Source of the DNA: Mobula hypostoma
Taxonomy: Eukaryota
DNA: 64,000 bases
Direction: 5' to 3'
Assembly (NCBI RefSeq): GCF_963921235.1
Contig: NC_086107.1
Location: 102,426,001 to 102,490,000, forward strand
The notes under the pieces are model-generated. The model searched no databases, was not told the DNA's origin, and saw nothing but the letters and a program-made list of their open reading frames with translations. Shown here in pieces: positions 6,426-57,547 of the stretch. The translations under genes and the position numbers were made by a program. Every line of letters starts with the position of its first letter. Position 1 is the first letter of the stretch.

Positions 6426-9400
6426 ACCTAGATTACAATCACAATGCAAGGCTTGATCCAGCCAACAGAGATTTTCTCCCATGGTGTACAATTAATTTAT
6501 TAGGACAACTACTGTCTTGGTGCCAAGGAAAGGAAACCCGTTTCAGCTCTTTTATCCATGTCTGCACCAAGGCATTCAAGTTATTTAGAGAGAACAGTCA
6601 TAGTGACAGTAATGACACATTGCAGCAGCTTGCTGATGACTTCATGTGGACTGATGAGGCATTAATTAGCTGGAATGTATTGGCTGCTTTCCCCAGGTAA
6701 TTTTCCATGCTGTCTAGATTCTCCAGTGCAGGCTGCACCAGGTACCCAATAGGTTCCATTTATACAAATATCCTCTGAGTTGATTTTGTCCGCAAGTCAA
6801 AAAATAAGCAAAAGTCAACCCATATGTAACTGTAACTCCACTGTATTCAATAAATCTCACTGAAAGACACAGGTTCAATAGGATAGAACAACTACTAGAA
6901 GTGGAAAGAGAAAGGAAGGTAGTTCTGCTCTTTGTAGGAGCAAACTATGCACGTATGTATGCTAGACTTCTGAATTGAATATTATGGGTGCTTGTTTGTA
7001 TGCTCATTCGTTATGTACCATGTCGTATGACGGAGGCTATCATGGTCTTTCCATGACCATGATTGTTCTTGGCAATTTTTTTCCAAAGAAGTAGTTTGCC
7101 ATTGCCTTCTTCTGGGCATTGTCTTTACAAGATGTATGACCCCAGCCATTGTCAATGTTTGTATGTAAGGGTGTTCTTAAATTCAATGTTCATAACCCAG
7201 AGATGGCCTGTATAAGGAAATAGTCTCTGAGCAGCTAAACCAGTGCCTAGAATCTAAATGGAGTAAATTTTTCAATTCCAATGAACTTGCATTATATTAT
7301 ATTCAATTGCTCAGTATCTCCTAGAACAAGGCTTTCATCTCAGGAATTAAAGTAGGTAACCTCTATTTCTTTTCCAAGAAAAGGAGACCGAATTGTAGAC
7401 ATTATTCTAAGACTGACTCCACAAAGCCTTCATAAATACAGCAAAACTTGAATTATCAGCCCCTTGCAATAAAAACCTATATTCAGTTTCCTCACCATTT
7501 GCTGTACTGCATGTTAATTTTCTGACGGGCGTACAAGAACACTCAAATTCTTCTGGGAGCCAATAGTTTCCAGACTTAAACACAAGATGCTACAGATGCT
7601 GGAAATCCACAGTAACATATATAAAATACTGGAGGAACTCAGCGGGTCAGGAACATCTAAAGAAAGGAATAAAGAGTTGACATTTCAGGCTGAAACCCTT
7701 CATCAGGACTAGAAAGAGAGGGGGAAGAAACCAGATTTATACTCCTGGTCAAGCTGGCTTCCTCGGATGATATCTTCCAGATAGTCCAGGAAACTGCTTA
7801 TTTCAATTTTTCTACGTCTTCTTTTTATCTTAAATGTGTTTCTGGAACTGTTAAGAGTCTGCGATTTACAGTTTGGAGATCGATTGAGTGATTTAGTGCT
7901 TTGCTGTCTCTGGGAAGATTCCAGGAAACATTCACGAGTGGCCTCGAGGCAAAGAACTCAAGAGACGAAACGCAAGCCCATGATCAACTCCACTTTGCTG
8001 ATCGAAGCGTCCGTTCATCACAGATTAAATAGTCGAGGAAGATTGAAACCTTGAGGCGAAATGTGGAAGGCACGCAAAAGTTCAGCACTGACTACCTGCC
8101 TCTTGATCACTGCTATGACAAATCTTATGCTGCTTCCGGAGAAGGACTCCGTGTGGTGGCCTATTGCCCCCTGCTCTGGAGGGTAGATTACTGTGTTCCA
8201 AGTGGTCTCTCTCTCTCTCTTTTTTAAATGCAGGGAGGGGGGCTTGGGGGTTGATTGTTCTAGTCCCGTTCTTATTTGTATGGGCAGGGGTTTGATGCCT
8301 TTCTTCGAACGACTTCCATGGTTTTCTTTGTTTCGTGGCTATCTGGAGAAGACGAATCTCAGAGTTGTATACTGCCTACATACTTTGATAATAAATGAAC
8401 CTTTCTGAACCTTTGGTGGGGAAGTGAAGTAGTACAAGTTAGAAGGTGATAAGTGAAGTCATGTGAGGGGGAAGGTAGGTGGGTGTGAAGTAAGAAGCTG
8501 GGAGGTGAGAGGTAGGAAAGGCAAAGGGCTGAATGAGAAGAAATTTGACAATCATAGATGCCGCCTAACCTGCTGAGTTCCTCCAGCATTTTGCGTTTTC
8601 CAGACTCTCACCTTTAAGTTATTTTGTTGTTCTATTTTCCTACTAGCAGAGTGTAATTTCATTGATTTTTCACTCAATGCCTAGTCTCACGTATAAAGAA
8701 TAGTAACACAAATTCAGACACTAGAAGATAAACTCAACACAGGAACAAAAGGGACTATCAGTGATACTTCCTCTCTCTACCTAAGCCAAATTAATCACAA
8801 TGATTTAAAAAAAAGACAATTTACTTGTGAAGTGTTTTGTCATCGGAGGAATCTGGTTTTACATTGTTCTGTGGAATGCTCAAACAACAGATAATTCCCT
8901 TTCCCTTCCCTGACTAGTGTCTCCATCATCAACCACAACCTATCAGATAACCCACCAGTGACTCCCTTGCACCAGCCATCCTCACCTCAGGAGAGCAAGG
9001 TCACCTCTCACTAATTCTTCTCACCTTTAGAATTATATGGAAACAAAGTCTACTTCAAAGGTTTCAAAGGTACATTTAATGTCAGAGAAATGTATACAAT
9101 ACACATCCTGAAATACTTACGCTACCTCTCCCCATTTCTCACCTACCCTCCCGTCCTTTCACTTCAACATTACATGACTGGGGAGAAATCCTGGCAGTAT
9201 TTTCCCCCCAATTACTTATTGAGGTACCAGAATGGAGTACGCCCTTCTGTCCTTCAAGCTGTGCCACCCAGCAACCCCGCTTAATCGTGGGACAATTTAT
9301 GATGACCAATTAACCTACCAATTGGTAGATTTTTGAACTGTGGGAGGAAACCAGGGCACCCAGAGGAAACCCATGCGGTCACAGGGAGAATGTACAAACT

Positions 9401-27862: not shown

Positions 27863-28420
27863 AAGAACACCATAAGACAGTAGCACTTACAACTGCGTCA
27901 CTAACCATCCTGCCAATGGGATTGGATGTTGCTAGGGATGCATTCCATGAATGTGCTGCTTGACTAGTCTGTGGGTCAGGACTCCCAGTTTAAACAAATA
28001 GATGTGATCTTATTGGGCTGACTAGATTGCCATGTTCTTTTTAAAAGGTTTGGAGCAGTGAGGTTAGACCAATACAACCGTGTACTACGGTTTTGTTCTC
28101 AATGCCCTTTACTGGACCCAGAAGGGCTGTTAAGAGTCAAATGTTTTGCTGAGAGTCTGAGTCTAATTTAGGTTAACAAACCAATCACCATTACAGATGG
28201 TCATAGCCAGACTATTAAAATGTACAAATTTTAATTTCTACAGCTGCCTTTTTGGGATTCCACAATGGTGTCAGTTCTGCCATCTGCTCTTGCGTTGGTT
28301 AATTCAGTGAATGCTGCCCTATCGCTACAAACTGATCTAATGCAAACCACAGCAAGCCATGCAGCATGCCCAGTCACAGGGTTTGTATCAGATGACAGGC
28401 CAAATGGAAGGATAACTAAC

Positions 28421-28554
28421 CTGTAACCGGGCCAGGATGCTGGCTTTCTTCGAGTTGGAAGAGTAGCTCCGAGAACAAGAGACACTGCAGAACCTTTTAG
28501 TCTTGGAAAAGAAGTCTTCCCGCTCGCCTTTAATGCCGCACATCTCGCAGGTAG
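28421..28554 (-). CDS. L3MBTL2: L3MBTL2 exon, FCS zinc finger (134 nt)
   Basis: aaag|CTACC...TTACAG|gttagt. Translates (A)TCEMCGIKGEREDFFSKTKRFCSVSCSRSYSSNSKKASILARLQ, near-identical to the L3MBTL2/MBTD1 FCS finger. Confidence 0.97.
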
Positions 28555-30942
28555 CTTTGCGTATTTAAGAAAAAATGTTTTAGAACAGCAGAACCAAAGC
28601 AGGTAAAGAGGTCAAAAGAAATTTTCGAGTTCTTAAACAGAAGGTGCTGCAAGTAAATCAGTGAACCTGTTGGTTTCTGAAAAGGAGAGGCTAATTAAAC
28701 TCCAGCCATTCTGCATAATGCTGGAGGTTTCCAAGCCTTGATTTCTATCAGACTCTGGTAAGTAGGCTGTGTTCATAGCAAGCCTAAGGGTTTCTACTAG
28801 GACCAATGCTTTTCTCAATACATACTTCGACACGCACAATTTTACAAGTTTACAGATGATACAAAACCCGGAGGCACATGTGAACTGTGGGAAATCAGGC
28901 TGTGAGGATGCAGCCTTTTTGAGGCATTGCCTTTTGAAGATATCCTCGATGCTGGAGAGGCAAGTGTCCTGATGGAGCTGGCTGAGTTTGTAACTTTGTG
29001 CAGCCTTTTCCAATCCTGCGTATTAATCCCTCCATACCATAGTGATGCAACTAGTTAGAATGCTCTCCCCGGTGCATCAGCAGAAGTTTGCTGGAGTCTT
29101 TGGCAACCTCTCCTCAAACTCCTATTGAAATAAAGATGCCGTCATGCCTTCTTTGTAATTGCATTAATACATTGGACCCATGAGGGATCTTCAAAGATAC
29201 TGATTCCCAGAAACTTGAAGCTGCTCACTCTTTCCACTGCTGATCCCTTGATGAGAACTGCTGTGAGCTCCCTCAACTTCCCCTTCCTGAAGTCCACAGT
29301 CAATTCATTACTTTTACTGACATTGAGTGCAAGGTTGTTGTTGCGACGCCACTCAACTAGCTGATCTATTTCACTCCTGTACGTCTCCTCGTCACCATCT
29401 GAGATTCTGCCAGCAATAGTTGTGTCATCGGCAAACTTACAGATGGTGCTCGAGCTGTGCCTAGCCACACAGTCGTAGGTGTAGAGAGTAGAGCAATGTG
29501 CTAAGCGTGCATTCTTTGAATTGCAGCATTATTGATTGTCAGTGAGGAGGAAATGTTATGCACTGACTGTGGTCTCCTGATGAGAAAGTCAAGGATCAAA
29601 AAGATAGTAACAGACTTCAGAGAAATACAATCAGGCTGGGTGGGAGTGGCGAAGAGGAGTGGCAGAAATTAAATGGTGACAAAAATTTCAGTAAGAAGAA
29701 TGAAAGAGGCAGTCACATTACAGTGTTCCCAACTGGGGTTCATGGACCCCTTGCTTAATGGTATTGGTCCAAAGCATAAAAAAGATTGGGAACCCTACAA
29801 CTACATCGTTCTATATGAAAAGGAATACAAGAATAGAGAGAACTGAGGCTATATGAGCATAGTTTGTTCAATGTGACAGGGTAGGTTCAGAAAGCGGTTC
29901 AACGTGCATACACGATCCCAGACTTGATCAATGAAGGTGCAAAGTGGAGTACAAGAGCAAAAGGAAGTCATCATGAAGTTGCATAAAACCTGCTTCATCT
30001 ATAACCCGAGGGGTGTGTGCTGTTCTGGGTGCCTCACTGTGGAGAGATTGAAAGCTTTGGAGAGGATGCAGAAGAGAAGAGATTTTACAAAATGATTCCT
30101 ATGATGGAAGATTTTAAACTTTGCAGGAGGAATTGGATAAGTGGAACAGAGGAAGAGGAGTATGAGGAGATCTGACAGAGGAATTTAAAAGCATAGGGGT
30201 GGGAAAGACTGAGCGAAAGTGTTCCAACTGGCCAAGAACAAAGGAACATAGAATGAAACCTTTTGGTAAAAGAAACAAATAGATGCAAAGGGGAAAATAA
30301 AAAATAGATCTGATTAGTTAGGGTCTGGAATATACTGCCAGAATTGTTGAGGAGGTAGATTTAGTTGTAACTTTCAAAAGGGAGCTGGATAAATACCCAA
30401 TAGAAAAGCAAGGTGGGCAAGTAGAGCTTACCTTAGGGAAAAAAAACTAGACAGAACAGAACAAAATGGCCTCCTTCCTTGCTGGAAGCATTTTGTGATG
30501 CTGAAATCCTGCTACCAGTTATGGCCTGTATTAGAACACAGAACATAACAGCACAGTACAGACCCTTCAGCCCACAACAGTGGGCCGATCTTTAAACCTA
30601 CTCCAAGATTAATCTGACCCTTTCTTTCCACATTGCCCTCCATTTTTTAAAAGATCATCTATTTGCCTATCTAAGGGTCTGTTAAATGTCCCTAATGTAT
30701 CTACCACTATCACCACCGCAAGGCAGCATGTTCCACGCACCCACCACTTTGTGCAAGGAAAACTTACCTCAACATTCCCCTCTACTTTCGTCCCAATCAC
30801 TTTAAAATTATGTCCCCTCATATTAGTCATTTCTACCCTGGGAAGAAGTCTCTGGCAATCTACTCGATCTATACCTTTTCTACAAGGGTTTTACAGAGCT
30901 GCAACAATGAAGGCCATATGCCTTCTTAACAACTTGCTGTGG

Positions 30943-31269
30943 TAGTGAAAAAGGATCTAGAGTTTTCCTGGCATACACGATGAATAAACTCTTCTTGGGC
31001 TTCCAGCCGGGTACCAACATCGACTATAACTGACATTTCAATAACCAACTCTGTCATCTTCCTCAGGGATGAAAAGGATCTAGTGCTTTTCCGGCGTATA
31101 GGACGAATAAACTCTTTTCGGGCTTCCAGCCAGGTACAGGTATCGATTATAAATAAGGTTTCGATGACCAACTCTGCCATTCCCTGATGAAGATGACAGA
31201 GTTTATCATCGAAACGTCGATTATAATCAATACCTGTACCTGGTTGGAAGTCCGAGAAGAGTTTATTCA
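30943..31269. mobile_element. Penelope-pLTR-derived insertion: two tandem minus units plus one inverted plus unit, carrying hammerhead cores
   Basis: 9-bp TSD TTGCTGTGG (30934-30942, 31270-31278). Direct repeat 30946-31069 / 31070-31182; inverted arm 31184-31269. Confidence 0.8.
31184..31218 (+). ncRNA. Minimal type I hammerhead ribozyme motif, catalytic core intact
   Basis: CTGATGA-A-GATGA(cagagttta)TCATC-GAAACGTC: conserved core, 5-bp helix II, palindromic ACGT helix III, GUC triplet. Helix I is weak in this copy. Confidence 0.7.
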
Positions 31270-32357
31270 TTGCTGTGGAAGCTTAGACATGGTAATGTCC
31301 AGCATACACATTAGATATTGGACATAGGATGAGAAATAGAGATACTTTGTTTAAGCCCATCCTAATTAGAAAATGCCTAATTCTACTTTAATTTCAGTTG
31401 CTGACTTTGATCCATCGACCATTTCTCATTAGCTATTTGATGATCGAATTTAAAAATTTCTGTTGACTCAGCCTTGCTCCATACCCTTTGAATTAAAAGC
31501 ATGACCCCAATGTACTATGAAACAGACCAACTATAATATTAAAGAGAAACCCCTCCCCCCTTCATTTAATCAATATCTTCAGTTTTGTCCACCATGCTAC
31601 AGGAAGGATGTTAAGCTGTAGGCAAGGTATAGATGAGGTTTTATAGGATGTTGGCAGTATCGGAGAATTATAGCATAGGTCAGAGCTTTTCTTTTTTAGA
31701 ACAAAGGGGACAAAACAAATGTATAAAATTACAAAAGACTTACAAAGTGTGAAGAGAAACCATTGATTTCCCCTTGACAGAATGGGCAGTAACTAGGAAG
31801 GTAGACTTTCAAGTTAACTGCAGAAGAATTAAGAGGAAAGATTTTCCTTAACCTCAATGAATTTTGGTGACTCGAAACTGAGAGGATGGTAGCGAGAAAA
31901 TAATGTCACATGGATAAAAGAGAAAGTTTTAAAATTTAGCTTAAAAAAAAATATTGAAGGAGACTTGAAGAGCCATACTTTGCAGGGTAAAAGGACTGAG
32001 AGCTGGGTCACAAAATTAGCATAAATAATCCATTTTTAGCCTAGTATGGACTCAATGGAGCAGGCAGCTATGTTACAAATTAGTAAGAATAAGACAACAA
32101 AAATCAACCCAATCATTCCTTGTCTACCTCCAAAAAAAAAATCAGCTCTCGACATTAACAAGTGTCACAGATCTGAGAGTCCAGGACAGACAAATACAAT
32201 AATTCATATCAGTTTCTGACAATCAAATCATGTTACAAATTAATAAGAGTAAGACAACAAAAAACAAGACTCTCATATCTTGTCTACTCTTCAAAAATCA
32301 GGTCTCGATAAATCACATTATACACTAACAAACGCACAATATTGTTACTCAATGTAC

Positions 32358-32574
32358 CCATTCCAAATTTTCCATTGATGGACAACTCATCGTCATCGTT
32401 TGTCATTCCAGATATCGACTCGGACTCCAGATCTTTGTGCTGGCTCCGCTCCTCTTCTTCCATGCGCTCGTCACTCGATTCCCCGGTGGTGAAGTTCCCA
32501 TCACTGCTGCTGCATCGGTCCTCCAGGCTATCGTAGCCATCAAATAGTCCATAGTCGTCTTCTACAAAAGCCAT
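32358..32574 (-). CDS. L3MBTL2: L3MBTL2 first coding exon (acidic N-terminus); the exon extends 5' as UTR to 32592
   Basis: Acceptor ...gctgtttcag (CT at 32593-32594). ATG at 32574 in strong Kozak context (ggaATGg). Encodes MAFVEDDYGLFDGYDSLEDRCSSS...INGKFGM, resembling the LFGGYDS/MFDGYDS starts of L3MBTL2/MBTD1. Phase-1 donor G|gtacat joins the next exon to give GMATCEMCG. Confidence 0.85.
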
Positions 32575-57277: not shown

Positions 57278-57547
57278 TGCGGGTGCTGGAAATCTAGAGC
57301 AATACACATAATGTGCTGGAGGAGCACAGCAGGTCAGGCAGCCTCTATTGATGGGCATAAACAGTTGGCGTTTCAGGCCAAAACCCTTCTTCAGCACTGA
57401 GAAGGAAAGGGGAAGTTTTGGACTGAGACCCTTGTCCCTCCCTTCTCAGTCCTGAAGAAGGGTGCTGGCCCAAAACGCCGACTGTTTATTCCTTTCCATA
57501 GATACTGCCTGACCTGCTGAGTTCCTCCAGCATTTGTGTGTGTGTTC
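57278..57547. mobile_element. Penelope-derived fold-back short element; further family copies at ~7575-7735, 19970-20240, 39578-39705, 41655-41885, 43374-43500 and 57830-58015
   Basis: 10-bp TSD CTAGAGGTAC (57268-57277, 57548-57557). CTGAAGAAGGG...(G/A)AAACGCC cores occur on both strands. Confidence 0.85.

What the first reader, a model, noticed from the sequence alone, without database searches (positions are those of the whole stretch)
30943..31269. Retrozyme-like cassette in an L3MBTL2 intron: tandem and inverted units with hammerhead cores on both strands
Seen: a 327-bp insertion bounded by a 9-bp TSD. It comprises two ~120-nt tandem units (minus) and one inverted unit (plus). The plus unit has an intact core at 31184-31218: CUGAUGA-A-GAUGA/UCAUC-GAAACGUC, predicted cut after C31218. 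The first minus unit has CUGAGGA-A-GAUGA/UUAUU-GAAAUGUC (31032-31066), with helix II retained through G-U pairs. Established: Penelope-like elements carry minimal type I hammerheads whose palindromic helix III favours dimeric cleavage, and tandem hammerhead units (retrozymes) can release monomers that circularise. Inference: this is a non-coding, ribozyme-bearing mobile family, distinct from the GGG-TCTCGG-CCC family in the window, and possibly undescribed in this lineage.
Basis: partly seen in the sequence, partly recalled or inferred. Interest (0 to 1): 0.82.

Follow-up and report, generated by a model that had tools for sequence, protein, structure and literature searches.

The report
Penelope-like retrotransposon end fragment with ribozyme motif
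The 327-bp insert is an ordinary, old, heavily truncated insertion of the terminal repeat of a Penelope-like retrotransposon in a ray genome, carrying the minimal hammerhead ribozyme motif typical of such elements rather than being a new kind of ribozyme-bearing mobile element.

Summary
Window 30943-31269 is flanked by an exact 9-bp duplication. It holds two tandem 123-nt units on the minus strand and one inverted unit, with hammerhead-type boxes at 31184-31218 (+) and 31066-31032 (-). It lies in the intron after the first coding exon of L3MBTL2, in a batoid ray genome.

The unit is not a separate non-coding family. In other copies the same sequence continues upstream through a TATA/CCAAT segment into a decayed reverse-transcriptase plus GIY-YIG-type endonuclease ORF. 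The unit is therefore the terminal repeat (pLTR) of an autonomous Penelope-like element (PLE).

The published PLE hallmarks tested here, other than a 5' pLTR, are present:
- variable target duplications, about 9-15 bp where scored;
- an optional 33-39-nt "tail" at only one end;
- head-to-head inverted copies;
- two direct plus one inverted pLTR;
- strong 5' truncation.

The motif matches the published PLE "min-HHR": an unpaired base after A9, G10.1-C11.1, no loop 3, and a palindromic ACGU.

It is not a retrozyme. Only this copy among 40 scored has a tandem junction, and its inner unit lacks the core. The family is old (about 12% from consensus) and no intact ORF was seen. Verdict: a new member of a known kind, of low interest.

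The parts
30934..30942 (.). left copy of the 9-bp target-site duplication TTGCTGTGG
   Evidence: D3
30943..30981 (-). 'tail' extension (39 nt) at the 3' end of the outer direct unit; this is the tail-bearing end of the insertion
   Evidence: The same tail is seen in 13 of 29 other copies.
30982..31071 (-). Outer direct pLTR unit body. It starts at (T)CATCC, directly after the tail of the inner unit.
31032..31066 (-). min-HHR motif CUGAGGA-A-helix II-GAAAUGUC. Three CpG sites have decayed, giving a G-U at 10.1-11.1 and AUGU in place of ACGU.
31072..31104 (-). tail (33 nt) of the inner direct unit
31105..31180 (-). Inner direct pLTR unit body. It is 5'-truncated at the inverted junction, so the CUGANGA box is absent.
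   Evidence: (I2)
31181..31269 (+). inverted pLTR unit ending without a tail (...TTTATTCA); this is the tail-less end of the insertion
31184..31218 (+). min-HHR motif with all boxes intact: CUGAUGA, unpaired A, 5-bp helix II, GAAA, palindromic ACGU. The predicted cut is after C31218.
31270..31278 (.). right copy of the target-site duplication
32353..32574 (-). context: L3MBTL2 coding exon (aa 1-74 of a ray orthologue)
28406..28555 (-). context: next L3MBTL2 coding exon (aa 73-122). The insert lies in the intron between these two exons, and its two direct units are in sense to the gene.

Best explanation
The insert is one old, extremely 5'-truncated insertion of a Penelope-like element (PLE). 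It consists only of copies of the element's terminal repeat (pLTR): two direct copies and one inverted copy.

Shown:
- The unit is continuous, in other genomic copies, with a TATA/CCAAT segment and an RT plus GIY-YIG-type ORF.
- Copies have variable-length target duplications.
- Copies end either with or without a 33-39-nt tail.
- Inverted pairs are always head-to-head, with one tail-bearing end and one tail-less end.
- The junction between the arms differs from copy to copy.

Inferred mechanism, by analogy with the Anolis Poseidon element studied in vitro (PMC11167929):
- The element's endonuclease cuts both target strands with a stagger.
- Reverse transcription is primed on both strands at two adjacent internal start sites of the RNA. 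This gives a tail end and a tail-less end pointing outward.
- The two cDNAs are joined in the middle.
- The extra direct unit arose when the polymerase reached the 5' end of a template RNA beginning at TCATCC and jumped to the start site of another template. TCATCC lies about 30 nt after the TATA box and is the likely transcription start.

The hammerhead is the PLE's own minimal ribozyme, 6 nt from that presumed start. It has no helix III of its own and could cut only weakly, as a dimer.

In this copy it is a relic. The minus-strand motif is CpG-decayed. Any transcript holding both arms should fold into a long hairpin of about -106 kcal/mol instead.
For: Family size and shape:
- The own-genome search found 5497 first-look candidates. 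All 39 other scored places match only the part 31072-31269, at 74-85% identity.

Target duplications:
- 18 of 29 hairpin copies have flanking direct repeats with 9-15 matching letters.
- 0 of 30 mismatched-partner controls reach that level.

Tails:
- 13 of 29 copies have the tail, 15 lack it and 1 is cut.

Inverted pairs:
- All 12 pairs are head-to-head, with homologous palindromic spacers of 35-1412 bp.
- In all 10 of the 10 resolvable pairs, one end has the tail and the other lacks it.

Continuity with a coding element:
- 21 of 29 copies continue upstream into the TATA/CCAAT segment.
- L085 carries ORF pieces with an RT YVDD motif and a GIY-YIG-like motif about 110 nt upstream of the unit.
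- The RT piece of L071 aligns with the RT of a Pfam-positive GIY-YIG PLE ORF at E=5e-14.
- The L070 piece finds RVT_1-bearing proteins that UniRef names GIY-YIG domain-containing proteins, best E=4.5e-38.
- The genome is PLE-rich: 149 of 150 scored GIY-YIG places are above the Pfam cut-off.

Motif:
- The boxes are beyond chance.
- The unpaired A is present in 94% of 65 instances.
- Helix II pairs are formed in 88-95% of instances.
- A second PLE family in the same genome shares only the core, the unpaired A and GAAACGUC, with a different paired helix II.

Published descriptions:
- The motif features match the published min-HHR description (PMC4209133, main text read up to the start of Materials and Methods).
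- The architecture matches PMC3846280 and PMC8557442 (passages read).

Folding:
- Hairpin MFE is -105.8 kcal/mol, against -6.6 for the motif alone.
Against: - No Rfam hammerhead model matches the window copy or 20 other copies at E <= 10.
- Helix I is only 0-2 bp.
- Pfam does not call GIY-YIG on this family's decayed endonuclease pieces. The profile comparison with Pfam-positive pieces is weak (E=0.014, probability 3%).
- No full-length copy and no 5' pLTR in front of an ORF was seen. The longest open frame among 150 scored places is 249 aa, and L091 is truncated.
- Core positions are not clearly better kept than other non-CpG positions: 0.924 against 0.906, with 2985 of 10000 random sets as high, in the less biased sample.
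- The transcription start and the two-strand priming are inferred, not observed.
- Both copy samples were picked by likeness to this window's sequence, so the proportions are biased.
Confidence: 0.88

Rival explanations
1. It is an independent non-autonomous, non-coding retrozyme family. Tandem ribozyme units would be transcribed, cut into roughly 123-nt monomers, circularised, and copied back by a PLE enzyme in trans.
For: - This copy has a tandem junction with a 123-nt period.
- Thousands of short copies hold only the unit.
- A few copies start exactly at TCATCC.
- Animal retrozymes are reported to derive from PLE pLTRs (preprint 10.64898/2026.07.22.740005; abstract, outline and the first part of the Results read).
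Against: - Of 40 scored places among 322 candidates, only the window itself spans the tail-to-ribozyme junction.
- The unit is continuous with promoter and ORF sequence in most copies.
- The unit boundaries are the RT start sites and the presumed transcript start, not the ribozyme cut site.
- The motif is the atypical minimal variant, not the canonical type I with loop contacts that marks retrozymes (PMC7229834, passages read).
- The inner unit has no core.
Confidence: 0.06
2. It is a miniature inverted-repeat DNA transposon (MITE) with long terminal inverted repeats, and the hammerhead boxes are a chance resemblance.
For: - The common 200-bp form is a near-perfect hairpin with 76-90-nt arms.
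- Rfam sees only microRNA-like hairpins.
- This copy has a 9-bp duplication.
Against: - Duplications vary from about 9 to 15 bp.
- The two ends are unequal: a tail is present at one end only.
- Many copies are single units or continue into an RT ORF.
- Arm junctions vary between copies.
- The boxes are shared with another PLE family.
Confidence: 0.02
3. The element is PLE-derived, but the hammerhead-like boxes no longer were (or never were) a working ribozyme in this family. They would be kept only as part of a promoter-proximal or RT-recognition sequence.
For: - Helix I is 0-2 bp.
- There is no Rfam match.
- PLE min-HHRs cut poorly in vitro (PMC4209133).
- In the Anolis element, ribozyme cutting was not needed for insertion and no RNA ends at the site were found (PMC11167929, passages read).
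- There is no clear excess conservation of the core.
Against: - Two unrelated PLE families in this genome keep the same boxes, the same unpaired A and a paired but different helix II. That is hard to explain without a constraint on structure.
Confidence: 0.3

Closest known systems
Minimal hammerhead ribozymes (min-HHR) in the pLTRs of metazoan Penelope-like elements (Cervera & de la Pena 2014, PMC4209133)
   Same: - Type I order of boxes.
- No helix III or loop 3, with a palindromic 15.2-16.2 (ACGU).
- Long helix II (5-6 bp here).
- A short helix I.
- A conserved unpaired base between A9 and 10.1.
- G10.1-C11.1.
- Location in the pLTR.
- 'Dual motifs close together on opposite strands'.
- Thousands of mostly solitary copies.
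   Different: - Helix I is even shorter (0-2 bp; that paper reports 2 bp for D. virilis).
- The host is a batoid ray.
- Self-cleavage was not tested.
Canonical PLE insertion architecture, for example Pen2a of Adineta vaga (PMC3846280) and the scheme in Craig et al. 2021 (PMC8557442)
   Same: - Two direct pLTRs plus an adjacent inverted pLTR.
- An optional 30-40-bp tail at one end only.
- An 8-10-bp target duplication.
- A TATA box in the pLTR.
- Heavy 5' truncation.
- Palindromic inverted junctions.
   Different: - Nothing (no ORF) lies between the two direct pLTRs here.
- The pLTR is short, about 90 nt plus the tail.
Poseidon element PAc of Anolis carolinensis, studied in vitro (PMC11167929)
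   Same: - Two adjacent internal RT start sites explain the ends with and without the tail.
- Both target strands are cut and extended, which fits outward-facing 3' ends on both sides.
   Different: - No biochemistry was done here.
- In PAc the ORF starts inside the ribozyme. Here the ORF start was not found.
Animal non-LTR retrozymes (PMC7229834; preprint 10.64898/2026.07.22.740005)
   Same: - A ribozyme-bearing short repeat related to PLE pLTRs.
- Larger, variable target duplications.
- Low GC content.
   Different: - There are no tandem arrays.
- The motif is the minimal rather than the canonical hammerhead.
- The unit is physically continuous with a coding PLE.
- There is no evidence of circles.

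Membership tests
PLE min-HHR (PMC4209133) | Core boxes CUGANGA ... GAAA ... UH in type I order | tested here: met
   - Present at 31184-31218 (+) and 31066-31032 (-).
- 0 hits in 19 of 20 shuffles.
- 34 of 65 family instances have all boxes intact.
PLE min-HHR (PMC4209133) | Unpaired nucleotide between A9 and 10.1 | tested here: met
   An A is present in both window motifs and in 94% of 65 instances.
PLE min-HHR (PMC4209133) | G10.1-C11.1 pair and a long paired helix II | tested here: met
   - At 10.1-11.1, 30 of 65 instances have G-C and 30 have G-U. The site is a CpG, and the sample is biased by the query.
- The six helix II pairs are formed in 88-95% of instances.
PLE min-HHR (PMC4209133) | No loop 3; palindromic 15.2-16.2 | tested here: met
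   The + unit has ACGU. The - unit has AUGU, which keeps wobble pairs.
PLE min-HHR (PMC4209133) | Lies in the terminal repeat of an RT plus GIY-YIG element | tested here: met
PLE min-HHR (PMC4209133) | Self-cleavage, as a dimer | not testable with these tools
   Only folding was possible. In the cofold, the palindrome after the cut site pairs between molecules, not ACGU.
Canonical hammerhead families of Rfam | Match to a hammerhead covariance model | tested here: not met
   - No hit at the gathering score in the window.
- No hammerhead hit at E <= 10 in 30700-31500.
- None in 20 other copies with their flanks.
Penelope-like element insertion | RT with a C-terminal GIY-YIG endonuclease ORF adjoining the repeat | tested here: met
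   - RT: E=5e-14 against a Pfam-positive PLE ORF.
- Homologues carry RVT_1 and the UniRef name GIY-YIG domain-containing protein.
- Pfam itself does not call the decayed endonuclease pieces.
Penelope-like element insertion | Optional 30-40-bp tail at one end only | tested here: met
   - 13 copies have the tail, 15 lack it and 1 is cut, of 29.
- 10 of 10 resolvable inverted pairs are unequal at the two ends.
Penelope-like element insertion | Direct and/or inverted pLTRs, 5' truncation, variable target duplication | tested here: met
Penelope-like element insertion | A 5' pLTR in front of a full-length ORF | tested here: inconclusive
   No full-length copy was among those examined.
Non-LTR retrozyme | Tandem arrays of ribozyme-bearing monomers | tested here: not met
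   - Only the window copy among 40 scored of 322 candidates spans a tandem junction.
- Its inner unit lacks the core.
Non-LTR retrozyme | Canonical type I hammerhead with loop 1-loop 2 contacts | tested here: not met
   The motif is the minimal variant, with no defined loop 1 and no Rfam match.
Non-LTR retrozyme | Unit-length linear and circular RNAs | not testable with these tools
   No run on record as RNA was served.
MITE / DNA transposon | Equal terminal inverted repeats and a fixed-length duplication | tested here: not met
   The ends are unequal (tail at one end), the duplications span about 9-15 bp, and single-unit copies exist.

The most novel reading that the evidence does not exclude
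The pLTR-only copies (single units and roughly 200-bp hairpins, thousands per genome) may not be random truncation products. They may be a SINE-like by-product made from short RNAs that start at the pLTR's own TATA-driven start (TCATCC), only 6 nt before the ribozyme.

If so:
- About 90 nt of pLTR would suffice in cis for recognition by the PLE enzyme.
- Each event would plant a long perfect hairpin, often in introns, as a steady source of double-stranded RNA.
- The ribozyme at the very 5' end would, if active, remove the cap from every element transcript.
Probability: 0.25. Interest if true: 0.4.

Novelty: new member of a known kind. Interest (0 to 1): 0.2.

Why it matters
It matters little beyond annotation. 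It shows that an apparently exotic "ribozyme cassette" in a ray intron is a standard Penelope-like element footprint. It also gives a clean genomic example, in a cartilaginous fish, of PLE hallmarks that automated pipelines tend to miss or mislabel as hairpins or microRNA precursors: the tail at one end, inverted plus direct pLTRs, and the min-HHR.

The regular pairing of one tail-bearing end with one tail-less end agrees with the two RT start sites and two-strand priming seen in vitro for an Anolis element. The pile-up of 5' ends at TCATCC gives a testable transcription start next to the ribozyme.

Tried and rejected
- **Rfam:** scans of the window and of 20 copies gave only weak microRNA-like hairpin hits.
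- **blastn against PLE loci:** the insert against 30 GIY-YIG-positive PLE loci gave no hit at E <= 0.01. Those loci belong to another PLE family.
- **Pfam on short ORF pieces:** only a weak RVT_1 hit, E=0.026. Pfam on four database homologues gave RVT_1 in two and no GIY-YIG call.
- **Profile comparison:** this family's endonuclease pieces against Pfam-positive ones gave E=0.014, probability 3%.
- **Arms made at each insertion?** I tested whether the two arms of a hairpin copy are closer to each other than to other copies. They are not (80.8% against 80.2%). The copies are too old for this test to tell.
- **Two subfamilies (TCGAAACGTCGG against TTGAAATGTCAG), with the window's units from different ones:** dropped. 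All three differences are CpG transitions, and the second sample was picked by likeness to the decayed unit.
equivocal, and not a fair test for dead copies.
- **RNA evidence:** no RNA holder was listed. The four runs laid are contigs of uncertain kind. They show only that the family and a neighbouring repeat are abundant, and nothing on ends or circles.
- **Full-length copy:** a fetch of one more locus (L091) gave another 5'-truncated copy.
- **Literature on rays or sharks:** the top 10 listed held none on this family. PLEs and retrozymes in one chondrichthyan are reported in the 2026 preprint.
- **Earlier findings for this genome:** none.

Full report
**Observation.**
- An exact TTGCTGTGG lies at 30934-30942 and again at 31270-31278 (D3).
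- Between the two lie a direct repeat of period 123 (30949-31057 and 31072-31180, 79% identical) and an inverted arm (31193-31268 against 31105-31180, 86% complementary, 12 nt apart).
- CTGATGA starts at 31184 and GAAACGTC ends at C31218 on the plus strand.
- CTGAGGA runs from 31066 and GAAATGTC ends at 31032 on the minus strand.

I wrote a descriptor for a minimal hammerhead: CUGANGA, an optional unpaired base, a helix II of at least 4 bp, GAAA, a self-complementary 15.2-16.2, and UH. With helix I not required, it finds exactly these two sites in the 64-kb window, plus a third at 7706-7679 that belongs to another family. Mononucleotide shuffles of the window gave 0 hits in 19 of 20 and 4 hits in one. 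With a helix I of at least 2 bp required, no window site passes.

No Rfam family reaches its gathering score anywhere in the window. At E <= 10 no hammerhead model matches 30700-31500; the only notable hit is a microRNA-like hairpin.

**Host gene.** A ray L3MBTL2 protein (99% identical over the tested exon to a Mobula protein, 87% to Pristis) maps to the minus strand. Its aa 1-74 lie at 32574-32353 and aa 73-122 at 28555-28406. The insert is therefore in that intron, and its two direct units are in sense to the gene. The genome is 3.48 Gb in 200 contigs.

**What the family looks like.**
- Searching the window's own assembly with the 327 bp gave 5497 first-look candidates, of which 40 were scored. 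Every place other than the window itself matches only the part 31072-31269, about 200 bp, at 74-85% identity.
- So the common form found with this query is one full unit plus an inverted partial unit, and the extra direct unit is peculiar to the window.
- Aligning 30 copies with their flanks shows target duplications of differing length. 18 of 29 copies have flanking repeats with 9-15 matching letters, against 0 of 30 when left and right flanks of different copies are paired.
- Variable duplications argue for target-primed reverse transcription and against a cut-and-paste transposon.
- The two arms of a copy are no more alike (80.8%) than arms of different copies (80.2%). The majority sequences of the two arms are identical at 74 of 74 columns. 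Copies lie about 12% from the majority sequence. This points to an old burst from a symmetrical source.
- The junction between the arms differs among copies, with at least six kinds in 30.

**A less biased sample.** I queried with the 93 nt across the window's tandem junction. Of 40 scored places among 322 candidates, only the window spans the junction. 37 match the ribozyme half and 2 match the tail half, so tandem arrangement is rare. The 29 new loci were picked only by their ribozyme part, and they show three things.
- First, 13 copies end with a 33-39-nt extension beyond TTTATTC, 15 end without it, and 1 is cut off.
- Second, 21 of 29 continue upstream of TCATCC into a conserved segment with a CCAAT box and a TATAAATA box. 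The TATAAATA box starts 33 nt before TCATCC. About five copies instead end at or within about 8 nt of TCATCC.
- Third, 12 loci hold a second copy, always head-to-head with the 3' ends pointing outward. The two are separated by 35-1412 bp of spacer that is homologous between loci and itself palindromic. In all 10 of the 10 pairs where both ends can be read, one end has the extension and the other does not.

**The coding partner.**
- In L085 the sequence upstream of the unit holds open pieces with an RT YVDD motif and a GIY-YIG-like motif. These end about 110 nt before the unit.
- The RT piece of L071 aligns with the RT of an ORF that passes Pfam's GIY-YIG cut-off (L044) at E=5e-14.
- The 217-aa piece of L070 finds 24 longer proteins, best E=4.5e-38. 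Many carry RVT_1, and UniRef names several of them GIY-YIG domain-containing proteins.
- Pfam itself does not call the decayed endonuclease pieces. A profile comparison with Pfam-positive pieces aligns the motifs in register but is statistically weak (E=0.014).
- The endonuclease piece has 4863 first-look candidates in the genome. All 150 scored have E <= 6e-21, and none has an open frame longer than 249 aa.
- The genome is rich in PLEs generally: 149 of 150 scored GIY-YIG places are above the cut-off.
- The unit is therefore the terminal repeat of an abundant, dead, autonomous Penelope-like element. It is not a separate non-coding family.

**Comparison with what is in print.**
- Cervera and de la Pena (PMC4209133; main text read up to the start of Materials and Methods) describe the metazoan PLE min-HHR. 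It is type I, has no helix III, is palindromic at 15.2-16.2, has a long helix II and a short helix I, a conserved unpaired base between 9 and 10.1, and G10.1-C11.1. It lies in the pLTRs, is often solitary or paired on opposite strands, is absent from mammals, and cuts poorly and only as a dimer.
- Each structural point is met here. The unpaired A is present in 94% of 65 instances, helix II pairs are formed in 88-95%, and ACGU is present.
Shuffles of the same loci gave totals of 0-1. That family shares with ours only the core boxes, the unpaired A and GAAACGUC, with a different but paired helix II. This is the best available sign of constraint on the structure.
- Arkhipova and colleagues (PMC3846280, passages) describe an insert of two direct pLTRs plus an adjacent inverted pLTR, with a 31-bp tail at one end, a 9-bp duplication and a TATA box in the pLTR.
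- Craig and colleagues (PMC8557442, passages) state that the 30-40-bp tail is often present at only one end.
- The Anolis Poseidon study (PMC11167929, passages) shows two adjacent internal RT start sites that bracket the tail, and cutting and extension of both target strands.
- The window insert is that architecture with nothing between the two direct pLTRs.

**Mechanism (inferred).**
- The endonuclease makes staggered cuts.
- Both 3' ends prime on element RNA, one at the tail site and one at the tail-less site. The cDNAs meet and are joined at a junction that differs per event.
- The outer direct unit begins at (T)CATCC directly after the inner unit's tail. This fits a jump from the 5' end of an RNA starting at TCATCC to the start site of another template.
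- The same 5' end recurs in other copies (L067, L086 and several hairpin junctions). That supports TCATCC as the transcript start. This is inference, not measurement.

**The ribozyme in this copy.**
- The plus-strand motif has all boxes, but helix I is 1 bp.
- The minus-strand motif carries three CpG transitions.
- The inner direct unit lost its core at the junction.
- Each strand therefore has a single core-bearing unit, and no monomer could be released.
- A transcript with both arms folds into a hairpin of -105.8 kcal/mol, against -6.6 for the motif alone.
- Core positions are only slightly better kept than other non-CpG positions. In the less biased sample the figures are 0.924 against 0.906, with 2985 of 10000 random sets as high. 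In the sample picked on that region they are 0.969 against 0.925, with 533 of 10000. For dead copies this test says little either way.

**Limits.**
- Both samples of copies were chosen by likeness to the window's sequence, and only 40 candidates per search were scored, so proportions are rough.
- No full-length copy was seen.
- The supplements of the cited papers, which hold the motif alignments, were not read.

**Verdict.** This is a well-observed but ordinary footprint of a known class of retrotransposon. It is at most a new family member in a ray.

Noticed in passing
window 7679-7706 (-), and degenerate cores starting near 57452 (+) and near 57394, 52874, 47970, 46209, 43480, 41751, 20057 and 12451 (-): There are ten copies of the other PLE min-HHR family (GGGTCTCGGCCC helix II) in the window. 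Nine are on the minus strand, in sense to L3MBTL2, which is an unusual orientation bias for intronic repeats.
   Followed up: partly
window 30793-30870: Another repeat family lies just upstream of the insert. Summed contig depth is very high in all four runs, and loose ends share a consensus.
   Followed up: no
L005:899-1045: An unrelated long hairpin scores 71.8 bits against the plant microRNA family MIR9563 (gathering score 90). It is probably another hairpin-shaped repeat.
   Followed up: no
G000 C130:559225-575070 and C18:109594686-109603645: There are clusters of GIY-YIG hits on one strand, spaced about 2-6 kb apart. These are tandem arrays of the other PLE family, some with open frames of 200-350 aa.
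   Followed up: no
L074:1788-1854: The spacer between the inverted units holds a 66-bp piece, 83-91% identical to the sequence right after the ribozyme of the other PLE family. This suggests a chimeric insertion or template switch between families.
   Followed up: no
L086:1480-1503: An inverted 18-nt piece of the tail abuts TCATCC directly, as if a very short inverted cDNA had been joined to the 5' end of a full unit.
   Followed up: no
window 31219-31228 and the same place in other copies: The 10-12 nt right after the predicted cut site are self-complementary (GATTATAATC here). In a two-strand fold they form the intermolecular duplex, rather than ACGU. This may be the real dimerisation site.
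   Followed up: partly
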